Part shown: piece by piece, positions 8,101 through 64,000 of the stretch
Layout: every line of letters begins with the position of its first letter
How positions within the stretch are numbered: the stretch's first letter is position 1
NCBI RefSeq assembly: GCF_035084215.1
Contig: NC_090338.1
Span: forward strand, 57,164,001 to 57,228,000
Reading direction: 5' to 3'
Length of the DNA stretch: 64,000 nt
From: Heptranchias perlo
Lineage: Eukaryota
Position numbers and translations under genes: made by a program
The notes under the pieces: model-generated
What the model was told of the DNA's origin: nothing
Seen by the model: only the letters and a program-made list of their open reading frames with translations
Database searches by the model: none

Positions 8101-11100
8101 ATGGATGGATACACATATATAAACTCATACATACACACACATATACATTTACACATATATAAACTCACACATACACACACATATACATTTACACATATAT
8201 AAACTCACACATACACACACGTATACATTTATACATATATAAACTCACACATATACACACACATATACATTTACACATATATAAACTCACACATACACAC
8301 ATATACATTTGCACATATATAAACGCACACATACACACACACATATATAAACATATACACACACGCTTACACTAGTATTTCACTCACACTGTAGGTAGGA
8401 GTGGAAACATATAAAGGCAGTTCCACAAGATTCAGTACTTACAATTTGAATGAAATACTAATGTAAGATTGCATGTGTACATGTGTTCCAACTACAGCCC
8501 TCGGCCAAAATGTAGCCTACGAGCCTTGGCTACGCTGTTCCCTCTAAGCTGCATGCATGCGCGGCCGTGCAGCAGTCTGTTGTCTGCCACAAACTTAATC
8601 ATTCCGTCCACGTACCAAACCAATGCTCTCTGCCCCTGTCCCACACTGACCAGTCCCCAGGCCCCTGTCCCACACTGACCAGTCCCCAGGCCCCTGTCCC
8701 ACACTGACCAGTCCCCGGGCCCCTGTCCCACACTGACCAGTCCCCAGGCCCCTGTCCCACAATGACCAGTCCCCAGGCTCCTGTCTCGCACTGATCAGTC
8801 CCCAGGCCCCTCTCTCACACTGACCAGTCCCCCCCAGGCCCCTCTCTCACACTGACCAGTCCCCCCCCGGGCCCCTGTCCCACACTGACCAGTCCCCAGA
8901 CCCCTCTTTCACAATGACCAGTCCCCAGACCCCTGTGCCACACTGACCAGTCCTCAGGCCCCTCTCTCACACTGACCAGTGCCCGGACCCCAGGCCCTTC
9001 TCCAGCTCTGTCTCCCCAGTGCTCTAGCCCCAGGCGGGCTGCTCTGCCTCTGGTGCTGGGGAGTGTCCGAGTGTCCAATCCCACGGCTCTGGCCCCAGCT
9101 GCCACATTGTTTACCACGTTGCTAGGAAATGCAGTCAGTGAACAGCTGATTGGCTTCAATGGTGGGGGGGGGGAGCTTTAATTAAACTGTTCCCTTTCCC
9201 CAAATTCACATTGACTGATTTGACAGCAGTTTTGTATTTCGGACTCAATTTAAAAATTCTGATTGCACACAATTTATTTCTGTTTGAATCATTCATTAAG
9301 CTGATTCAACAAAAAGCTGATTGGAATCATTCCCATCAGATAATTTTTAATAAAATATAATGAGACTGGTCTGCTCAATCCTAGTGTAACTCAAGAAACC
9401 CATTTCATAAATTATATAAGTTTATCAGCCAATATAACATTAAAATGTTACAATTATCTATTGTTTTGTACATTTCTTCTGTTTGTTATTTACCCTGAAT
9501 AATGTTTTCTATAACGATATTCTAATCAACGGTGTGATTTTTTTTAACGGTGACGCACACAGCCTTTATATTGGTGCACAAACCCATATTCATTCCACTC
9601 GTTGGCCGAAAAAAATTAAAGGGAACATTGCTTGGCTATCAGTCTGTGTGGTAATATCTGCCATTTTGAAAAGAGTTTGTCAGTGTAGCATGAGACTATG
9701 TTAAATTCCATAACTAGATTCCTGCCGAGGATGATTATTAATGCACTGGGCCTCCAACTCCAGGAAGATAGAATATATCAAAGATATAGATTGTAGGGGA
9801 CAAAGTCCACAAGTGGGAATTGATATTAAATTGTTGACACAGCAGAGGATTGCATTAAAAACCCCAAAATGTAATAATATCCAATCCTTCTGTCAACTTA
9901 GTTTGAGTAAACTGGAGAAATATGTCATTCTGGAGGAGCTGTGATATTCACTTGCATTGCCACTAACTCAGAAATGTGTTGGTTAACACCAGAGTTGATT
10001 TGACAGAAGTTTTTCTTTTCTTACCAATTTTCTCCCCTTCCCTCCTGTCCTGAAAATGTTGACTCCTTCTGAGTGTCAGCTTGGCTCAGTGCGAGAACAC
10101 TTGCCTTTGAGTCAGAAGGTTGTGGGTTAAAGTCCCTCTCCAGGATTTGAACGTATAATCTGAGCTGACATTTTCAGTGCAGCACTGAAGGACTGCTGCA
10201 TTGTCAGAGGTAGCATCTTTTGAGTGAAACGTTAAACTTGAGACCCCACCTGCTTCTTCACGGGGATGTAAAAGATAATATGGCACCTCTTGAAGTTGGG
10301 TCCTCCTGCTGTCCTTGTAACATTTATCCCTCAACCAGCACCAAAAAACAGATTAACTAGTTATTCATTTCACTGCTGTTTGTGGGACCTTGATATGCAC
10401 AAATTGGTTGTTACATTTGCCTAAAGACTGCATTTCATAAATAGAGCATTTACAGGTAACAAAAACTAGTTTCTGCAAGAGTTCAGTTCAAAATTTAAAT
10501 ACTGAAGTGGATAAAACACACCAAAACATTGACTATCCATATCAAATGTAGACACTGCACCAGATCTATTAACCAGTGTTCACACATATGCACTTCCTGC
10601 TTAGGTCACTGATTAACGATCAGAAGGGGGAACCCTAGCCAATTTTCCCTTCCCTGTCCCAGAGACGGTGAGGCAATTGTAGCAACCTTACCACCACCCA
10701 GGCAAGACAGGTTACTTCAATGTCAATATCATGTCCATGATTACAACCATTGAAGATGAACCAAATTAACCCAAATTCACAGAGTTTAGACTGCAATTTG
10801 TAGAATCAAACCTCCAAACTGCAACTTTAAGCTGGCAGAAACTGCTACTGACTGTCTCAGCAACCAGCTACCAAGAAAGCAGCTTCCTTTTTCTGAAATT
10901 ATCTCACTGCACAGTACAAAGAGAGAAGTCCACTTAGCAAATAACTTCATGTGACATTTCTACCCGTTTTAAGCACAAGTGTTCCGACCCATCATTTTGC
11001 AATAATTCCACCTCATTTAAAAGCATGATACTTTGTAAGAGTAAATGATAGCCTAAAAGGCTTAAAATCTTAGGTAAGAGCATATTTTAAGGCCTACCCT

Positions 11101-26200: not shown

Positions 26201-27137
26201 TCATGTACAGGGTATCCCGAAGTTTCTAGCCTCCTTGATCCTCCCATGATTCGCATGGTGATATTTCTATCATTCTTATAACTTTGATACAGAGGACCTG
26301 AGCTTGACTCCAGCTTTGACTGTCATTGAAACTTCACAGCTTCCTAAAGGTGGGTTTAACAGTTCTTCACCAGACTCCAAAAACAGTTCCTCATTCTTTG
26401 TCATCCAAGCACTATATCCTGGGGCGAAGAATCAATCAAAAAGGAGCTACTTTATGCTCTGATTGTGCCCTCTTGTCAGCAAACACAGAGCCATTCATGG
26501 CAATATGGAGAATTCAGTCATCAAGTTCAGTTTATGCATCTTGGCTGAAGAACAACATGGAGGGAGCAAGTAAAAAAATGGCATTTTAAAAAATGGTAAC
26601 GTTTAGTAGCACTAAATCATAAGATGATAGACAAAAGTGCAGAAAAGGAATTTTCTTGATGTCAGCAGGTACTAAGAATTCTTAAACACACTTAAACTGA
26701 AAACACGAGTCAAAAGAAATGCAAATTCAAACCTGGCAGTTAGATAATATGAAGTGGCCCCGGCCATCTGCCCACAAGCCTCAAAGATAGTGAGGGATAC
26801 TTTACTCATATTCGCTTAGAAAACCACAAGCAACATAAATTCCTACAAACTCAATGATAAGCTGAATAATATTCACACATTTAAGAACCACGACCTTTAC
26901 ACTGCTTTGACAAGGCTGCACTTATAATGCCCATTTCCTATTACCACACAGTATAGTTAAGAATAAGTATAAATGCTGAAATAAAAATATAACATTTAAA
27001 AAGAGAAAGATGTTTCTTTTTCAATTCCGATTTCATTTTACAACAAATGAACGACACATCATAAGATTGTAGGTAATCCTGTAATGCTGTGAGATGAGGC
27101 CCCAGAGCAGAGGAAAGGGAGTGGCCCATAAAAAGAC

Positions 27138-27395
27138 GGGAGTCGGAGGCCCGAGAGCAGCTGATGCAGCAGAGCAGAGGGGAGGGAGTCGGAGGCCCGA
27201 GAGCAGCTGATGCAGCAGAGCAGAGGGGAGGGAGTCGGAGGCCCGAGAGCAGCTGAGGCGGCAGAGCAGAGGGGAGGGAATCGGAGGCCCGAGAGCAGCT
27301 GAGGCGGCAGAGCAGAGGGGAGGGAATCGGAGGCCCGAGAGCAGCTGAGGCGGCAGAGCAGAGGAGAGGGAGTCGGAGGCGCGAGAGCAGCTCAG
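27138..27395. repeat. 46-bp GC-rich minisatellite, ~5.5 copies
   Basis: Unit gggagtcggaggcccgagagcagctgaggcggcagagcagagggga. Confidence 0.95.
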
Positions 27396-27788
27396 ACAGC
27401 AAAGAGCCCACACAGCCAATTGGCCATCAAGACTTTTTCACTCCAATTGCCCAACCTGTCCAATCCACAAATGAAAGCTTACTGTAATGTGGAGCATAAT
27501 TTGCTGCAGTCTCAATATCTGTGAATCAGCTTTGGATCTTGCAGGGCCAGGAAGGCACACATGGCCGGGCCTCTATTCAGCTGGTTCCTCCTCCTGTGCT
27601 GCCACTTCACTTCCTCCTCTTCAGTTGTCCTCAGGGCTCGCTGTAGATTCCCGCAGAATTGCCACCCGTTCCCCTCTGGAGTTACTGCACTGATGTCAGA
27701 GCCTAACTTCTGTAGATTCTCCAACATTCTATACAGTGTATAAAGACTGCATGAAGCACATCTACTCATTAATGAGCTCCCTTCTACA

Positions 27789-27892
27789 TGTGGAGATGCC
27801 GGTGATGGACTGGGGTTGACAATTGTAAACAATTTTACAACACCAAGTTATAGTCCAGCAATTTTATTTTAATTTCACAATTTTATTTTAAT
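27789..27892 (-). mobile_element. 104-bp Penelope-like terminal fragment with 12-bp TSD
   Basis: Reverse complement of the Penelope terminus at 28869-28958. TSD ctcccttctaca at 27777-27788 and 27893-27904. Confidence 0.88.
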
Positions 27893-28507
27893 CTCCCTTC
27901 TACAGGCAGCTCCCTTAAGGTAAGAGTGCATGGCCATTCAGCTGAGGAAAATCTGGGGCTAGGCTTCCATTCAGCTGGTTCCTGCTGCTCTACAGCCAGC
28001 TCTGCCTCACTTGCACTGCATGTTGGCCTTTATCTCAAAGGGGTTGGAATGCAAAAGGGAGGAAGTGATGCCTCAGTTGTACAGAGCCTTGATCAGACCC
28101 CCTCTAGAGCACTGTGTTCAGTTTTAGGCACCGAACTTCAGGAAAGATATGTTGGCCTAGGTGGGGGTACAGCGCAGATTCACCAAAATGATTCCAGGGC
28201 TTAAAGGGTTAACAACAACAACTTGCATTTATGTAGCACCTTTAACATAGTAAAATGCCTCAAGACGCTTCACAGGAGCGCTATCAAACAAAATTTGACA
28301 CCGAGCCACGTAAGGAGGTATTAGGATAGGTGACCAAAAGCTTGGTCAAAGAGGTAGGTTTCAAGGACCGTCTTAAAGGAGGAGAGAGAGGTAGAGAGGC
28401 AGAGAGGTTTAGGGAGGGAATTCCAGAGCTTAGGGCCTAGGCAGCTGAACACACGGCCTCCACCGGTGGAGCGAATAAAATCAGGGATGTTCAAGAGGCA
28501 TGAATTG

Positions 28508-28963
28508 GAGGACGGCCTCAACCGGGATCTTGGGTTCATGTCACGCTACACGTTACCCCACCAGCGAACAAATGTTATCTGTTTTTAATATAATGGGTCA
28601 TTTGCTGGCTCTCTCTGCCTTCCGGATGTTTCTGCCTCTCTCTGTGTTTTTTTTCTCTGTTTTTTTTCCCTGTTTGTTTTTTTGTTGAATGTGTATTCGG
28701 GGGTTCTGCAGGTGACACCTCTCTGTCTGAACACGGTGATTGCCTTGGCAACGGGCAGTTGCAGGGGCAGTCTGTAAACACCATGTATTGTTCAATATGT
28801 ATAAATGCGTAGGCTTCAAGGAGCTCTTGAAACATTTGCCTGAGGAAGGAGAAAATCTCCGAAAGCTTGTGAATTTAAAATAAAATTGCTGGACTATAAC
28901 TTGGTGTTGTAAAATTGTTTACAATTGTCAACCCCAGTCCATCACCGGCATCTCCACATCATG
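28508..28963 (+). mobile_element. Penelope-like element 3' fragment (P1)
   Basis: GIY-YIG C-terminus (EDGLNRDLGFMSRY), 3' UTR, hammerhead and terminus ...catctccacatcatg. Confidence 0.9.
28835..28873 (+). ncRNA. Minimal type I hammerhead ribozyme (P1)
   Basis: ttgc-CTGAGGA-a-ggaga(aaa)tctcc-GAAA-gc-tt-gtga. Confidence 0.75.
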
Positions 28964-30105
28964 ACAAATGAGAGACAGTGGAGGGGTCTAGAGAGGTGGC
29001 GGTGAGGTAGAGCTGGGTGTCATCAGCCTACATGTGGAACCTGACGTTGTGTTTTTGGATGATGTCACCGAGGGGCAGCATGTTTTTGAGAAATAGAAGG
29101 GGGCCAAGGGCAGTGTAGGGTGTTTCCGATCGTGTGAGTGTCGTTCAGCCTTGCTGGTCACAACTGAACTCACTTATTTACAGTCGAAGGTCTGGGCTTA
29201 CCCTTATGAATCACGCTGAAGGATGATGAATAATGCAATTGAGATAGGTTTCAGATTTTGAACAGTAAAAGTATGTTTAATATGTACAGCAAATCTCAAT
29301 ATGGCAAAACCGATGCTAATGTTCCTATATGACTACAAACAAATAGATTACTTCCCCATGGACTTCTTAAACTAAGCCCCTCCGTGTTCCCTTACTCACG
29401 GCTGTTAACTCCCAACACTACACTGCTAAGGTTTGGTCGGACATGCAGAGGTAATTCTCCACACGGCTGTGAGTTGAGTAATCTGCAGGCTGCGGTTGAA
29501 ATGCTCACCCTGCTGACTTTGCCTGCCGGGTCGGGGCTTCTACGATCGAAGTCCTTGGGGCCATACCTGCTCCTTGGGGCTTGTGACCACTTTCGGTCCT
29601 GGTTGTAGAGAGAGCGGCTTGCTCTGATCTCCTGATGTTGTAGAGCTGTGTGGCTGGTGTCCTTTTGACCTCCACTCTTTGACCTCCACTCTTCGACCCT
29701 CCTCTTCCTGAGGCTGCAACAGTTATACTGTTTTTGGCTGATCTCATCAGACGATGCAAAATGCTACGATTGGTCCCTGGAGAGAAAGCTTTGTTTGAAT
29801 GTGTATTATTCTCCCGCCTCTCATCTAGCTGGTATTGGAGGACAATGGGAACTGTTGACTATATGAGGTGTGAACTGTTTTCAGATGGGTTCTGTTGTCC
29901 CGACCGATTGACTTAATTATATCAACCGGGGTGGGGGGGGGGGGGGGGGAATTCATTGTCTCCTTAGCCAACTTGGAGCCGGTGATGATGTGAGGCACTG
30001 TCTCTGTTGGGTGGGGTGAGTTTTAGTTCAAAAGCTTGTCTGGGAACTGTGTTTTAAACAGGGTCCTTTTCGCAGCCATTTTCCCAAAACTGGGGTTTTC
30101 CCCTG

Positions 30106-30778
30106 GACACCACCCACCAGGTGCACGGTTCATACACCTGTGACTCGGCCAACGTTGTCTACCTCATAAGCTGCAGGAAAGGATGCCCCAGAGCATGGTA
30201 CATTGGCGAGACCATGCAGACGCTGCGACAACGGATGAACGGACACCGCGCAACAATCGCCAGATAGGAGGGTTCCCTCCCAGTCGGGGAACACTTCAGC
30301 AGTCATGGACATTCAGCCACCGACCTTCGGGTAAGCATACTCCAAGGCGGCCTTCGAGACACACGACAACGCAAGATCGTCGAGCAGAAATTGATAGCCA
30401 AGTTCCGCACCCATGAGGACGGCCTCAACCGGGATCTTGGGTTCATGTCACGCTACACGTAACCCCACCAGCGAACAAATGTTATCTGTTTTTAATATAA
30501 CGGGTCATTGACTGTCTTCCTTCTCTCTCTCTCTCTTTATTTTTTGGGGGTTTGTATATTCAGTGGCCTTTTTAGGTGACACCTTTCTGTCTGCTCACTG
30601 TGATTGCCTTGGCAACGGGCAGTAATCACCAGGCATTGTTCTGTGATTTACAAATGCGTAGGATTCGAAAATGTCATTTCCACACCGTTCACCTGACGAA
30701 GGAGGAAGCCTCCGAAAGCTTGTGGAATTTAAAATAAATTTGTTGGACTATAACTTGGTGTTGTAAAATTGTTTACAA
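30106..30778 (+). mobile_element. Penelope-like element 3' fragment (P2), GIY-YIG region
   Basis: Near-identical to 53700-54055 (NVVYLI..WYIGET); in-frame stop at ~30265. Confidence 0.92.
30688..30726 (+). ncRNA. Minimal type I hammerhead ribozyme (P2)
   Basis: ttcac-CTGACGA-a-ggagg(aag)cctcc-GAAA-gc-tt-gtgg. Confidence 0.8.
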
Positions 30779-52330: not shown

Positions 52331-52443
52331 AAAGTCATAAAATCATGTCACCAACCTCCACTCCTAGATTTCATCTCCGTCTCTGTGACTAACGTAAGGA
52401 ATCTTACAACACCAGGTTATAGTCCAACAAATTTATTTTAAAA

Positions 52444-52481
52444 TCACAAGCTTTCGGAGATTATCCCCTTCGTCAGGTGAA
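52444..52481 (-). ncRNA. Minimal hammerhead ribozyme (P3 inverted arm)
   Basis: Reverse complement reads ttcac-CTGACGA-a-gggga(taa)tctcc-GAAA-gc-tt-gtga. Confidence 0.8.
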
Positions 52482-54285
52482 TGAGTGAAAAGGTTCTCAA
52501 ATCGCATATCTTATACTAGGCTGGGACAGCATCACACCAATCAAAAGATGTCGTTGTTATTCAAACAGGCCAGTCACGGAGAACAGCACGTCCCAGTACA
52601 CTGGATATACATTGTGTCAATTACACAGACAGACAGAAAGAAACCCAAATGGCAGAGAGAGAGAGAGAATATTAAAAACATAACTTTTTTTTCCCCTTTT
52701 TGCTGGTGGGGTTACGTGTAGCGTGACATGAACCCAAGATCCCGGTTGAGGCCGTCCTCATGGGTGCGGAACTTAGCTATCAACTTCTGCTCGACGATTT
52801 TGCGTTGTCGTGTGTCTCGAAGGCCGCCTTGGAGAACGCTTACCCAAAGATCAGTGGCTGAATGTCCTTGACTGCTAAAGTGTTCCCCGACTGGGAACAC
52901 TTTAGCATGGTCTCGCCAATCGAGCACGACTTCTTCACTGCACAGGACCTCCAACCAACGCTATACACCAGATACATCGATGACATTTTCTTCCTATGGA
53001 CCCACGGCGAAGAATCACTGAAGAGACTACACGATAACATCAACAAGTTCCATCCCACCATCAAACTCACCATGGACTACTCCTCAGAATCGGTTTCATT
53101 CTTGGACACACAAATCCCCATCAAAGACGGGCACCTCAGCACATCACTCTACCGCAAGCCCACGGACAACCTCACGATGTTCCACTTTTCCAGCTTCCAC
53201 CCCAACCACGTTAAAGAGGCCATCCCCTATGGACAGGCCCTACGAATACACAGGATCTGCTCAGACGAGGAGGAACGCGATGGACACCTACAGACGCTGA
53301 AAGACGCCCTCGTAAGAACGGGATATGACGCTCGACTTGTCGATCGACAGTTCCGACAGGCCACAGCGAAGAATCGCATAGACCTCCTCAGAAGACAAAC
53401 ACGGGACTCAACCAACAGAGTACCCTTCGTCGTCCAGTACTTCCCCGGAGCGGAGAAACTACGCCATGTTCTCCGCAGCCTTCAACATGTCATCGATGAA
53501 GACGAACACCTTGCTAAGGCCATCCCCACACCTCCACTACTCGCCTTTAAACAGCCACCCAACCTCAAACAGACCATCGTTCGCAGCAAGTTACCCAGTT
53601 TTCAGGAGAACAGCGTCCACGACACCACACAACCCTGCCACGGCAACCTCTGCAAGACATGCCAGATCATCGACACGGATACCACCATCACACGAGAGGA
53701 CACCACCCACCACGTACATGGTTCATACCCCTGTGACTCGGCCAACGTTGTCTACCTCATACGTTGCAGGAAAGGATGCCCCGGAGCATGGTACATTGGC
53801 GAGACCATGCAGACACTGCGACAACGGATGAACGGACACCACGCAACAATCGCCAGACAGGAGGGTTCCCTCCCAGTCGGGGAACACTTTAGCAGTCAAG
53901 GACATTCAGCCACCGATCTTCGGGTAAGCGTTCTCCAAGGCGGCCTTCGAGACACACGACAACGCAAAATCGTCGAGCAGAAGTTGATAGCCAAGTTCCG
54001 CACCCATGAGGACGGCCTCAACCGGGATCTTGGGTTCATGTCACGCTACACGTAATCCCACCAGCAAAAAGGGGAAAAAAAAGTTATGTTTTTAATATTC
54101 TCTCTCTCTCTCTGCCATTTGGGTTTCTTTCTGTCTGTCTGTGTAATTGACACAATGTATATCCAGTGTACTGGGACGTGCTGTTCTCCGTGACTGGCCT
54201 GTTTGAATAACAACGACACCTTTTGATTGGTGTGATGCTGTCCCAGCCTAGTATAAGATATACGATTTGAGAACCTTTTCACTCA

Positions 54286-54323
54286 TTCACCTGACGATGG
54301 GGATAATCTCCGAAAGCTTGTGA
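54286..54323 (+). ncRNA. Minimal hammerhead ribozyme (P3 forward arm)
   Basis: ttcac-CTGACGA-t-gggga(taa)tctcc-GAAA-gc-tt-gtga. Confidence 0.78.
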
Positions 54324-55179
54324 TTTTAAAATAAATTTGTTGGACGATTACCTGGTGTTGTAAGATTCCTTACATTTGTCCACCCCAGTCCATCACCGGC
54401 ATCTCCACATCTGTGACTAACGGCAGCGTAAGATGAAGGGCACACTCTAAATACACACAATCTTAATTCTTCTCCTGCTGCACTGGCTGAGTGGTGTAAG
54501 TAGAGACACAAACCACAATTTCCAGAGATTGATCTCCACTGCAAAACCTTACGTGGATGAAGAAGATGTGGGCCTCGAATTTTTATGTTGCTTTTTTTAG
54601 TTCTAATCTTAGTAAACCATAACCAGTTTTCAAACACAGTTTGTTAATTGGAGTACTCTTTGAGGGTCTGAGGTGTCACTTTTGGCTTTTGCTGAATTTA
54701 ATTCCATTTTCTCTCTGCAAACTTTAGGATTCTGTGATTGAAGTGTAGGAACCGCAACCTTCTCCAGTCAGCCCAGAGACACCATGATCATTTGTGAACT
54801 GAAGCCTTTTACATGCCTATAATAAACCTAATGGCTTAAGACCCTCATGCCAGCAGTGCCAAGTCCAATCCACCCTTAAGCCCCGCTATTGACAATAACA
54901 GACTTGGATGTGTCCGTGTAAGAGTATAAAAGGGGCAATGTATCCACAGAGAGCAAAGGCCGAGCAAGTGTCAGTCCGTGTCCCTCGTTGCCAGTGTGGC
55001 CGTGGTTCATCTGTAGCTCCATCTTTATTGTAATGACTGGCTCCACTCGCACACCTAATAATGCCAATATAATTAACAAGGGTATAAACCTGCACTTTGC
55101 CTGGTGCTCTGCACCACACAGTCAAGTGACCAATACCTCTCAGGGTTGTACAATGGGTTCTGTCCATTCATCATATCAG

Positions 55180-59965: not shown

Positions 59966-61291
59966 GCAGGAGTCTCAGAATCTGGTGTTGTGATCTACAG
60001 GATCTGATATGTTTAAATATCTAGATATAGGTCAGGCTCAGTTGGCAGCTCTCTAGCTGCTGAGTAGAAGCTCAACCCCCACTCCAGGACTTCACCCATA
60101 TTCTAGCCCAACACTTCAGCGCAGTACGAAGGGAATGCTGCTATTGTTGGAGCTGCTTTGTTTCAGAATTAAACATTAAACCACAGACCCATCTGGCAGT
60201 TCAGAAGCATGTAAAAGATGCCACATTTGAAAAAGAGTCAAGAGTTTTCCTGGTGCCCTGGCCAACATTCTGCCCTCAACCAACATCACCAAGAAAAAAA
60301 ACAAATTGACTGATTATTCTTCTCATTTGCTGTTTGCAGGATCTTGCTTTGGGCGATTGCCGATATAGGAATAGTGTCTGCACTTCACAAATAATTTGTG
60401 GTTAGTAAGCACTCTTGGCTGTCCTCGAAAGGTGATAAGGTGCTATATTAATGGGAGTACTTTCTTTCTAAATCATACCAATTTTAAATACTCTTCAGAT
60501 CATTTTAGCACCAATTCATCATTATTTGATTTCAATGCAGATATTTTAGTATTTTGCAGTGAAATGTCCTCCATTACATGGCTACTTTGTCAGCAGGCAG
60601 ACAGAACCTCCAAGAAAACAGGTGAGATCAATTTATTTTCGGTCTCCGCTGTTTCTGCAGACTTGACTTGAAGCAGAGTTTCCATCCATCTCTGACAAGG
60701 CTGGGGCAGGGACTCCCTAAGACCTGAGTTCCCAGACCTGACTCTGGATGGCGACTCAGCGTATCCGTGGCAGCTGGTACACCAGGAAATATGTGGTGTA
60801 CCAACCTCTAAAAAAGCTCAAGTGGGCCCCAACAGTGGCGTTATTATGACATGATGTGTGATTTTAAAAAGTCTCTCTAAAATAACCGCTCATTTGCAGT
60901 TTAATAACCTCTCTAATTTACACACATTCATTTTTTAAAAACCTTTCCAATGTACTCACACATTCATTGTTTAAAAACCTCTCTAATATACTCACACATT
61001 TACCATTTAAAACCCTCCAATATACTCACAAATTTACTGTTTAAAAACCTTTAATATACTCACATTTACTGTTTCAAAATCTCACAAATATACGCATACA
61101 TTTATTGCTTAAAAACCTTTCTATTATACTCACTTTAAAAACCTCTCTAATATACTCACACATTTGTTGCTTAAAAACCATCCTGACTTGGAAATATATC
61201 CATGATGTGGAGATGCCAGTGATGGACTGGGGTTGACAATTCTAAACAATTTTACAACACCAAGTTATAGTCCAACAATTTTATTTGAAAA

Positions 61292-61329
61292 TCACAAGCT
61301 TTCGGAGGCTTCCTCCTTCCTCAGGTGAA
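61292..61329 (-). ncRNA. Minimal hammerhead ribozyme (P4 inverted arm)
   Basis: Reverse complement reads ttcac-CTGAGGA-a-ggagg(aag)cctcc-GAAA-gc-tt-gtga. Confidence 0.8.
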
Positions 61330-62302
61330 TGTGGAAATGAAATCCTCGAACCTTTCGCATTTATAAATCACAGAACAATACCTGGTGATTACAGATAGTC
61401 TTTCCAACTGCCCGTTGCCAAGGCAATCAAAGTGTTCAGAAAGAGAGGTGTTACCTACAGGGCCACCGAATATACAATGACAACGAACACCTCGCTATGG
61501 CCATCCCCACACCTCCACAACTCGCCTTTAAACAGCCACCCAACCTCAAACAAACCATCGTTCCCAGCAAATTACCTAGCTTTCAGGAGAACAGCGTCCA
61601 CGACACCACACAACCCTGCCACGGTAACCTCTGCAAGACATGCCAGATCATCGACACAGATACCACCATCACACGAGAGGACACCACCTACCAGGTGCAT
61701 GGTTCATACTCCTGTGACTCGGCCAACGTTGTCTACCTCATACATTGCAGGAAAGGATGCCCTAGAGCATGGTACATTGGCGAGACCATGCAGACGCTGC
61801 GACAACGGATGAACGGGCACCGCGCAACAATCGCCAGACAGGAGGGTTCCCTCCCAGTCAGGGAACACGTCAGCAGTCAAGGATATTCAGCCACCGACCT
61901 TCGGGTAAGCGTACTCCAAGGCGGCCTTCGAGACACACGACAACTCAAAATCGTCGAGCAGAAATTGATAGCCAAGTTCCGCACCCATGAGGACGGCCTC
62001 AACCGGGATCTTGGGTTCATGTCACGCTACACGTAACCCCACCAGTGAACAAAAGTTATCTGTTTTTAATATAACGGGTCATTTGCTGTCTTTCTCTTCC
62101 TTCCGGATGTTTCTATGTTTCTGCCTCTCTCTCTCTCTGTTTTTTTTTGGTTGTTTGTATATTCGGTGGCCCTGTAGGTAACACCTCTCTGTCTGAACAC
62201 TTTGATTGCCTTGGCAACGGGCAGTTGGAAAGACTGTCTGTAATCACCAGGTATTGTTCTGTGATTTATAAATGCGAAAGGTTCGAGGATTTCATTTCCA
62301 CA

Positions 62303-62340
62303 TTCACCTGAGGAAGGAGGAAGCCTCCGAAAGCTTGTGA
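62303..62340 (+). ncRNA. Minimal hammerhead ribozyme (P4 forward arm)
   Basis: ttcac-CTGAGGA-a-ggagg(aag)cctcc-GAAA-gc-tt-gtga. Confidence 0.8.
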
Positions 62341-63499
62341 TTTTCAAATAAAATTGTTGGACTATAACTTGGTGTTGTAAAATTGTTTACAATTGGGAAT
62401 ATATCACCGTTCCTTCATTGTCGCTGGGTCAAAATCCTGGAACTCCCTACCTAACAGCACTGTGGGAGAACCTTCACCACACGGACTGCAGCGGTTCAAG
62501 AAGGCGGCTCACCGCCACCTTCTCAAGGGCTATTAGGGATGGGTAATAAATGCTGGCCTTGCCAGCGATGCCCACATCCCATAAATGAATAATAAAAAAA
62601 AGGGCAGGAGTCTCAGAATCTGGTGTTGTGACCTACAGGATCTGATAAGTTTAAATATCTAGATATCGGTCAGGCTCAGTTCGCAGCTCTCAAGCTGCTG
62701 AATAGAAGCTCAACCCCCACTCCAGGACTTCACCCATATTCTAGCCCAATGCTTCAGCGCAGTACGAAGGGAATGCTGTATTGTTGGAGCTGCTTTGTTT
62801 CAGAATTAAACATTAAACCACAGCCCCATCTGCCAGTTCAGAAGCATGTAAAAGATGCCACATTTGAAGAAGAGTCAAGAGTTTTCCTGGTGCCCTGGCC
62901 AACATTCTGCCCTCAACCAACATCACCAAGAAAAAAAACAAATTGACTGATTATTCTTCTCATTTGCTGTTTGCAGGATCTTGCTTTGGGCGATTGCCTA
63001 TATAGGAATAGTGTCTGCACTTCACAAATAATTTGTGGTTAGTAAGCACTCTTGGCTGTCCTCGAAAAGTGATAAGGTACTATATAAATCTAAGTACTTT
63101 CTTTCTAAATCATACCAATTTTAAATACTCTTCAGATCATTTTAGCACCAATTCATCATTATTTGATTTCAATGCAGATATTTTAGTATTTTGCAGTGAA
63201 ATGTCCTCCATTACATGGCTACTTTGTCAGCAGGCAGACAGAACCTCCAAGAAAACAGGTGAGATCAATTTATTTTCGGTCTCCGCTGTTTCTGCCGACT
63301 TGACTTGAAGCAGAGTTTCCATCCATCTCTGACAAGGCTGGGGCAGGGACTCCCTAAGACCGGAGTTCCCAGACCTGACTCTGGATGGCGACTCAGCGTA
63401 TCCGTGGCAGCTGGTACACCAGGAAATATGTGGTGTACCAACCTCTAAAAAAGCTCAAGTGGGCCCCAACAGTGGGGTTATTATGACATGATTTGTAAT

Positions 63500-64000
63500 T
63501 TTAAAAAGTCTCTCTAAAATAACCGGTCATTTGCAGTTTAAAAACCTCTCTAATATACTCACACATTTACCGTTTAAAACCCTCTAATATACTCACAAAT
63601 TTACTGTTTAAAAACCTCTAATATACTCACATATACTGTTTAAAAACCTCTCGAATATACTCACACATATATTGCTTGAAAATCTCACCAATATACTCAA
63701 AAATAAACTGTTTAAAAATCACTAAAATACACTCACACATTTATTGATTAAAAACCTCTCTAATATACTCACACATTTATTCTTTAAAAACCTCTCTAAT
63801 ATACTCACACAATTATTATATAGAAACCTCTCTAATATACTCACACATTTATTGTTTAAAAACCTCTCTAATATACTCACACATTTATTATATAGAAACC
63901 TCTCTAATATACTCACACTTATTATTTAAAAACCTCTCGAATATACTCACACATTTATTATTTAGAAACATTTAATATACTCACACATTTATTATTTAGA
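63500..64000. repeat. ~36-bp satellite array running off the window end
   Basis: (acacatttattgtttaaaaacctctctaatatactc)n. Confidence 0.9.

What the first reader, a model, noticed from the sequence alone, without database searches (positions are those of the whole stretch)
27777..27904. 104-bp Penelope insertion whose 5' end coincides with the predicted ribozyme cleavage site
Seen: a perfect 12-bp TSD (ctcccttctaca) flanks a minus-strand copy of only the sequence downstream of the hammerhead. Homology begins at (tt)GTGAA, i.e. at the predicted GCUU^GUGA cut, and is preceded by a ~13-nt self-templated repeat (ttaaaataaaatt) that also explains the 'tt'. Inference: this is a genomic record of retrotransposition of the ribozyme's 3' cleavage product. 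It would be in vivo evidence that the hammerhead cuts and that the ~90-nt tail suffices for mobilisation, as a ribozyme-defined mini-retroelement.
Basis: partly seen in the sequence, partly recalled or inferred. Interest (0 to 1): 0.7.

Follow-up and report, generated by a model that had tools for sequence, protein, structure and literature searches.

The report
Penelope stub beside a ribozyme cut
This 104-base insertion is a real, likely dead-end stub of a very common jumping gene; genome-wide, most such stubs keep the whole self-cutting RNA motif and begin at the predicted RNA start, and only a small excess begins at the predicted cut, a modest hint that the motif sometimes cuts in the animal.

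Summary
The 12-bp TSD and minus-strand Penelope-like tail are confirmed. The 5' end is not clean: the insert is [+6..+20][+2..+90] (+1 = predicted cut). A TTG microhomology lets the junction lie anywhere from -2 to +2, and the outer end is +6.

42,691 arms run intact across the cut; 169 have a non-T at -1. The sharp 5'-end peak lies upstream: 35 of 95 unselected arms end at -35..-46, about 30 nt below a TATA box (predicted RNA start), with the hammerhead intact. A small step does exist at the cut: TSD-flanked single-arm ends are 2.6-5.6 times background at +1 (11 events; p 0.006 to 0.0001), about 2% of arms.

There is no sign of a 90-nt mini-element: the 3' end matches an internal reverse-transcription start just before the ORF, not an RNA end.

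Verdict: ordinary stub, about 30% likely from cut RNA; family-level weak evidence (about 50%) for minority cleavage. The scan noted similar patterns before, in this and other genomes.

The parts
27777..27788 (.). Target-site duplication, copy at the element's 3' side
   Evidence: Identical to 27893-27904; its first base on the minus strand (T, 27788) also matches element +91, a 1-nt microhomology
27789..27878 (-). Element +1..+90: leader between the predicted hammerhead cut and the ORF start, including the roughly 34-nt 'tail'
   Evidence: 91/92 identity to 28867-28958; family 3' ends cluster at +52..+60 and +88..+98
27877..27880 (-). Ambiguous junction (TTG microhomology), element positions -2..+2, containing the predicted cut (-1/+1 = 27879/27878)
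   Evidence: Sequence; the same junction stands in 12 genome places
27881..27892 (-). Templated filler, element +6..+17 (with the shared TTG: +6..+20); carries the same rare A at +6 as the main piece
   Evidence: Sequence; the A(+6) variant has only 72 intact arms against 42,691 for both variants
27893..27904 (.). Target-site duplication, copy at the element's 5' side
28508..28965 (+). Separate, longer copy of the same element end with intact minimal hammerhead (about 28835-28873; predicted cut 28868/28869), TATAAAT at 28800-28806, predicted RNA start near 28830, ATG at 28961
   Evidence: 99.8% identity to the full 3,081-bp unit over 458 nt; helices I and II fold; sequence

Best explanation
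This is a TSD-flanked 104-bp stub of an abundant Penelope-like retrotransposon, likely made when the element's reverse transcriptase started inside the RNA just before the ORF, stopped early beside the hammerhead, re-primed 19 nt back through a TTG microhomology and was joined to the target. Shown: TSD, piece order, family, and the genome-wide end distribution. Inferred: internal priming at +90 (by analogy with PMC11167929), the jump-back, and that the template was more likely uncut than cut. The usual short product of this family runs to the predicted transcription start 35-46 nt upstream of the cut and keeps the hammerhead; this copy is one of the few percent that end sooner. It lacks promoter, hammerhead and ORF, so it would be a dead end.
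For: Full unit: 3,081-bp tandem with a 918-aa stop-to-stop frame, RVT_1 hit E 3e-10, and YIDD, CX4CxxC and GIY-YIG-like motifs. Two 3'-end clusters about 35 nt apart match the two internal start sites in PMC11167929. 42,691 arms are intact over -9..+26. 35 of 95 unselected intact arms end at -35..-46, about 1,300 arms per position against about 170 at +1. Over the same 137 Mb, apparent ends per position are: -25..-10 66 in 16 positions; +1 8; +2 6; +3 6; +4 21; +6 12. Of 50 listed hairpins near the cut, 25 (plus 2 with one mismatch) centre on the AAGCTT palindrome upstream of the cut and 0 are blunt +1/+1 joins (hand tally). 17 of 44 hairpin arms ending at +1..+6 have a partner arm past the cut. 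Of 12 copies with the same jump, L332 continues through the whole hammerhead, and L341 and L340 reach -4 and -2.
Against: Single-arm TSD-flanked ends show a step at the cut: 1.7 per position per 100 Mb at +1 (11 events) and 2.4 at +2..+4 (6 events), against 0.31 background (11 events); ratio 5.6, p 1.4e-4, or 2.6, p 0.006 when copies without a TSD call are included. In 9 of the 12 same-jump copies the upstream piece again begins at -1..+9 (read by eye), as expected if the template ended there. No matching excess was seen below the more stable helix II at -7..-1 or -13..-10 (-9 and -8 were not sampled).
Confidence: 0.6

Rival explanations
1. The template was the hammerhead's 3' cleavage product (about 3 kb, +1 through the ORF). 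Reverse transcription began internally at +90, ran off the cut end at +1, re-primed once and was joined. The copy is still a dead end, but it would record in vivo cleavage, along with about 2% of arms.
For: Step at +1 among single-arm inserts, decaying over about 9 nt like the peak at the predicted RNA start. L052 and L471 are clean TSD-flanked copies starting at +1/+2. Core and palindrome are invariant in 10 of 10 aligned copies, with compensatory changes in 3 of 10 pairs. Jump-back repeats also occur at predicted RNA-start ends (L348, L446). The anole element's hammerhead cuts in vitro with protein (PMC11167929).
Against: The junction fits -2..+2, and a 3-nt microhomology favours -2. Counts are small, partly classified by eye, and use assumed pass rates. 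Stalling at helix I (+1..+5) or at the folded core would give a similar step. PMC11167929 found no RNA-seq reads beginning at the cut and found uncut RNA to be the dominant substrate.
Confidence: 0.3
2. A longer insertion lost its upstream part, or gained the 19-nt repeat, after integration by deletion or replication slippage.
For: The same 19-nt duplication exists inside longer copies (L332, L334).
Against: The 12-bp TSD is perfect and abuts the insert on both sides; the element part is 100% identical to sister copies, so there has been little time; a deletion would have to end exactly at the TSD.
Confidence: 0.07
3. One reading: a 90-nt ribozyme-defined RNA is itself a mobile mini-retroelement.
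For: Tail-only TSD-flanked copies exist (about 55 estimated to start at +1).
Against: The 3' end is an internal start site shared by copies of all lengths. 8 of the 11 single-arm +1 copies end at +52..+58 rather than +90. This junction with the A(+6) variant occurs once among 12. No promoter or second ribozyme bounds such an RNA. In the anole element the RNA needs the first 172 nt of the ORF (PMC11167929).
Confidence: 0.03

Closest known systems
5'-truncated insertions of endonuclease-positive Penelope-like elements with pLTR, tail and TSD (PMC3846280, PMC8557442; passages read)
   Same: RT plus C-terminal GIY-YIG-like ORF in tandem units, TSD, optional 30-40-nt tail, head-to-head inverted copies in sister insertions, TATA plus initiator-like motif in the pLTR
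   Different: This copy is single-armed, stops before the hammerhead and carries a 19-nt templated repeat; those passages give no histogram of 5' ends
PAc/Poseidon of Anolis carolinensis (PMC11167929; text parts 1-2 of 4 read)
   Same: Two internal start sites about 35 nt apart that define the tail; hammerhead upstream of them
   Different: Here the ATG lies 93 nt after the cut (in PAc the cut is 26 nt after the start codon); the CX4CxxC linker points to the Neptune/Nematis type; a small genomic step at the cut is seen here, none in their RNA-seq
Minimal dimer-type hammerheads of metazoan PLEs (PMC4209133; text parts 1-2 of 4 read)
   Same: Core boxes, extra base between 9 and 10.1, G-C pair opening helix II, palindromic helix III region
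   Different: Activity not tested here; the insert itself holds none of the ribozyme except the 3' strand of helix I
Non-LTR retrozymes (10.64898/2026.07.22.740005; part 1 of 5 and passages read)
   Same: Non-coding, PLE-related, hammerhead-associated
   Different: Retrozymes are tandem units each holding a hammerhead; this is a single copy without one

Membership tests
Endonuclease-positive Penelope-like element (source element) | Single ORF with reverse transcriptase | tested here: met
   918-aa stop-to-stop frame in L121, Pfam RVT_1 E 3.1e-10, YIDD at 548
Endonuclease-positive Penelope-like element (source element) | C-terminal GIY-YIG endonuclease | tested here: inconclusive
   GIY-YIG-like motif at residues 806-823, but no Pfam GIY-YIG hit at E 0.001
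Endonuclease-positive Penelope-like element (source element) | Tandem or partial-tandem units with pLTR, inverted copies and 30-40-nt tail | tested here: met
   Three hammerheads 3,081 bp apart in L121; hairpin inserts and two 3'-end clusters
Neptune/Nematis-type PLE | CX2-5CxxC linker between RT and endonuclease | tested here: met
   CX4CxxC ending at CKTC 774-777; feature as given in PMC8557442
Neptune/Nematis-type PLE | Placement in RT phylogeny | not tested
   No tree built
Minimal type I hammerhead (in sister copies) | Core CUGANGA / GAAA / UH with helices I and II | tested here: met
   Core invariant in 10 of 10; 95.5% of cells paired, 3 of 10 pairs with changes on both sides, 5 of 500 shuffles reach the covariation score; Rfam gave no hammerhead hit and folding z-scores are weak, -0.5 to -1.3
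Minimal type I hammerhead (in sister copies) | Self-cleavage at GCUU^GUGA | not testable with these tools
   Only assembled contigs were available; they cannot show RNA ends
Retrozyme / non-autonomous ribozyme-bounded retroelement | Unit carries its own hammerhead and is bounded by cuts at both ends | tested here: not met
   No hammerhead in the insert; the 3' end is at +90, not at a second cut
Retrozyme / non-autonomous ribozyme-bounded retroelement | Re-amplified as a fixed unit | tested here: not met
   12 places share the jump, with different outer ends and flanks; one has the A(+6) variant

The most novel reading that the evidence does not exclude
The genome's 45,000-odd insertion arms are a fossil map of the element's RNA ends: a dominant capped start 35-46 nt above the hammerhead and a minor (1-3%) end exactly at the hammerhead cut, which would be genomic evidence that a minimal PLE hammerhead cleaves in the germline and that its 3' product is still used as template.
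Probability: 0.5. Interest if true: 0.6.

Novelty: new member of a known kind. Interest (0 to 1): 0.36.

Why it matters
Whether the minimal hammerheads of Penelope-like elements cut in vivo, and why, is stated as open in PMC4209133 and PMC8557442, and PMC11167929 found cleavage dispensable in vitro. This family has enough young copies to turn the question into a histogram. The counts here bound the share of cut templates at a few percent and show that most short copies come from uncut RNA run off at a fixed upstream start. The single insertion adds little on its own.

Tried and rejected
Rfam search of the window: no hammerhead hit, only two low-complexity mir-297 matches; the motif rests on sequence, folding and covariation.

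Sequencing runs: no RNA holder listed on record; four runs guessed to be RNA, all held as contigs, cover the element but cannot show ends.

Empty site: no contig of X1, X9, X10 or X11 joined across the insert; this proves nothing. One X1 contig spans the left junction, but X1 may be the source sample.

The DNA search was biased toward copies matching all 92 bases and was not used for the histogram.

A link between the insert and the opposite-strand copy 1 kb away was rejected: the insert has its own TSD and differs at +6.

AT-richness alone as the cause of the step was considered: +10..+19 is as AT-rich and shows 0.27, and +1 is a G.

A cap-derived G is only suggestive: in 9 of the 18 G cases examined, the partner arm also supplies the G.

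Literature searches listed no genome-wide map of PLE 5' ends, but the library is incomplete. The supplement of PMC11167929 (Fig. S2, RNA-seq ends) was not read and bears on the cleavage question.

Full report
Numbering: +1 is the G after the predicted cut GCUU^GUGA, -1 the T before it. An 'arm' is one copy of the element's end; a hairpin insertion has two.

1. Observation. The 12-bp direct repeat at 27777-27788 and 27893-27904 is perfect. Between the repeats, the minus strand reads a 12-nt filler followed by element -2..+90, 91 of 92 identical to the copy at 28867-28958. The filler plus the next TTG equals element +6..+20, so the insert is a partial tandem of period 19 whose inner junction fits -2, -1, +1 or +2 equally and whose outer end is +6. 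The filler and the main piece share a rare A at +6 (72 intact arms), so both came from one template.

2. Source element. A fetched array has hammerheads 3,081 bp apart and an open 918-aa frame with RVT_1 (E 3.1e-10), YIDD, a CX4CxxC linker and a GIY-YIG-like motif: a Penelope-like element, likely of Neptune/Nematis type (no tree built; Pfam gave no GIY-YIG hit). The ATG starts at +93. The hammerhead has an invariant core in 10 of 10 aligned copies, and 3 of 10 pairs change on both sides; Rfam does not detect it. The cut position follows the standard numbering for the dimer-type motif of PMC4209133 and is a prediction. Family 3' ends form two clusters, +52..+60 and +88..+98, matching the two internal start sites that give the tail in PMC11167929. 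The insert's 3' end is therefore most likely a start of reverse transcription, not an RNA end; a 3' cleavage product would be about 3 kb long.

3. Exact whole-genome pattern counts: intact -9..+26, 42,691; non-T at -1 then +1..+32, 169, of which about 38 of 51 arms examined are real junctions and the rest point changes or small indels; two upstream mismatches catching ends at -7..+9, 1,709; at -25..-10, 1,300; at +5..+20, 1,058. I fetched the listed places over the first 137 Mb of contig C1 and called the ends (67, 94 and 44 distinct arms, of which 1, 8 and 6 indel-like arms were dropped). Ends: -25..-10, 66 in 16 positions; -7..-1, 19 in 7, plus about 10 arms of AAGCTT-centred hairpins that the pattern excludes; +1 8, +2 6, +3 6, +4 21, +5 5, +6 12; +10..+20, 24 in 11. 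Positions -9 and -8 were not sampled. There is a broad two- to threefold bump after the cut, with its top at the AATT and TTTAAA palindromes, not a spike at +1. Of 50 listed hairpins near the cut (159 in all), 25 are perfect joins at AAGCTT, 2 more with one mismatch, and none is a blunt +1/+1 join (hand tally). 17 of 44 hairpin arms ending at +1..+6 have a partner that passes the cut; for arms ending at +10 or later it is 9 of 35.

4. Where the ends really pile up. Of 95 distinct unselected intact arms (from the 100 listed, all in the first 6 Mb of C1), 35 end at -35..-46, 34 run 110 nt or more upstream, and 26 end elsewhere. That scales to about 15,700 arms, 1,300 per position, against about 170 at +1. 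In one subfamily 2,733 arms have mismatches at -56/-55 and 1,724 are intact there; 98 of the 100 listed end at -46..-39 (hand tally). Position -46 is the A of an initiator-like TCA-TTT, 29 nt below TATAAAT (motif definitions recalled). In subfamilies whose TATA lies at -68/-69 the commonest end is -39. G precedes 53 of 100 ends at -46 (hand tally), possibly a copied cap, though the partner arm explains 9 of 18 examined. Inference: most short copies are run-off products of uncut RNA from the pLTR promoter. I reached this reading before looking at earlier notes (notes); notes on this and other genomes say the same and are not independent evidence.

5. Rates per position per 100 Mb: -25..-10, 0.40 (6 events); -7..-1, 0.17 (1); +1, 1.7 (11 events in 903 Mb; 6 called by script, 5 by eye); +2..+4, 2.4 (6); +5..+9, 0.9 (6); +10..+20, 0.27 (4). 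The ratio of +1 to background is 5.6 (p 1.4e-4), or 2.6 (p 0.006) with copies lacking a TSD call included. Pass rates of the mismatch letters are assumed from base composition, and the patterns differ between windows. The excess at +1..+6 is about 1,000 arms, some 2%. The edge at +1 and the decay over about 9 nt resemble the peak at the predicted start. Stalling at helix I or at the folded core remains a rival. I put minority cleavage at about 50%.

6. This copy. Twelve places share its jump. One continues through the whole hammerhead, two reach -4 and -2, and nine begin again at -1..+9 (by eye). The first three show that the jump does not need a cut template; the nine fit either a template end or short templated fillers made during end joining. 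Combining the step, the 3-nt microhomology that favours -2, and the doubt about the step's cause gives about 30% that this copy came from cut RNA (my estimate, not a computed value).

7. Comparison and verdict. The insert is a 5'-truncated PLE copy of a known kind (PMC3846280, PMC8557442; passages read). It fails the retrozyme tests. No empty site was found, and no RNA ends could be read. My searches listed no published genome-wide map of PLE 5' ends. Interest lies in the family statistics, not in this copy: 0.36.

Noticed in passing
G000 genome-wide; loci L374-L403, L404-L438: Short-copy 5' ends track the TATA box, not the hammerhead. In one subfamily (TATA at -75) 2,733 arms have mismatches at -56/-55 against 1,724 intact; 98 of 100 listed end at -46..-39 (hand tally). 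In subfamilies with TATA at -68/-69 the commonest end is -39.
   Followed up: yes
L379, L382, L439-L463 and the listing: The base before ends at -46 is G in 53 of 100 (A 30, T 17; hand tally), and several hairpins have an extra CG at their centre; this may be reverse-transcribed cap G as described for full-length L1 (PMC11702581, passage read). Half of the 18 G cases examined are also explained by the partner arm.
   Followed up: partly
L061-L176: Most short insertions are two-armed head-to-head hairpins (66 of 86 arms), typically one arm from about +92 and one from about +56, with 12-13-bp TSDs.
   Followed up: partly
L121 (G000:C1:4458500-4468000): Tandem array of 3,081-bp units with two identical open 918-aa frames, a sign of very recent activity.
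   Followed up: partly
window 30105-30778, 52386-54419, 61201-62395: Further copies of related subfamilies of the same element, including inverted pairs with ORF ends.
   Followed up: no
L472-L474, L482, L044, L049, L056: A recurring variant has G at -1, the cleavage-site base, in otherwise intact hammerheads and has spread to several loci; a possible natural control for cleavage.
   Followed up: no
listing: Apparent ends at -25/-24 are as frequent as at +1 (9 and 8 against 8 in 137 Mb), at the edge of the sampled window; unexplained.
   Followed up: no
window 27092-27450, 8574-9026, 18251-20048, 60844-63989: Tandem arrays of 46, 29 and 34-36 bp units.
   Followed up: no
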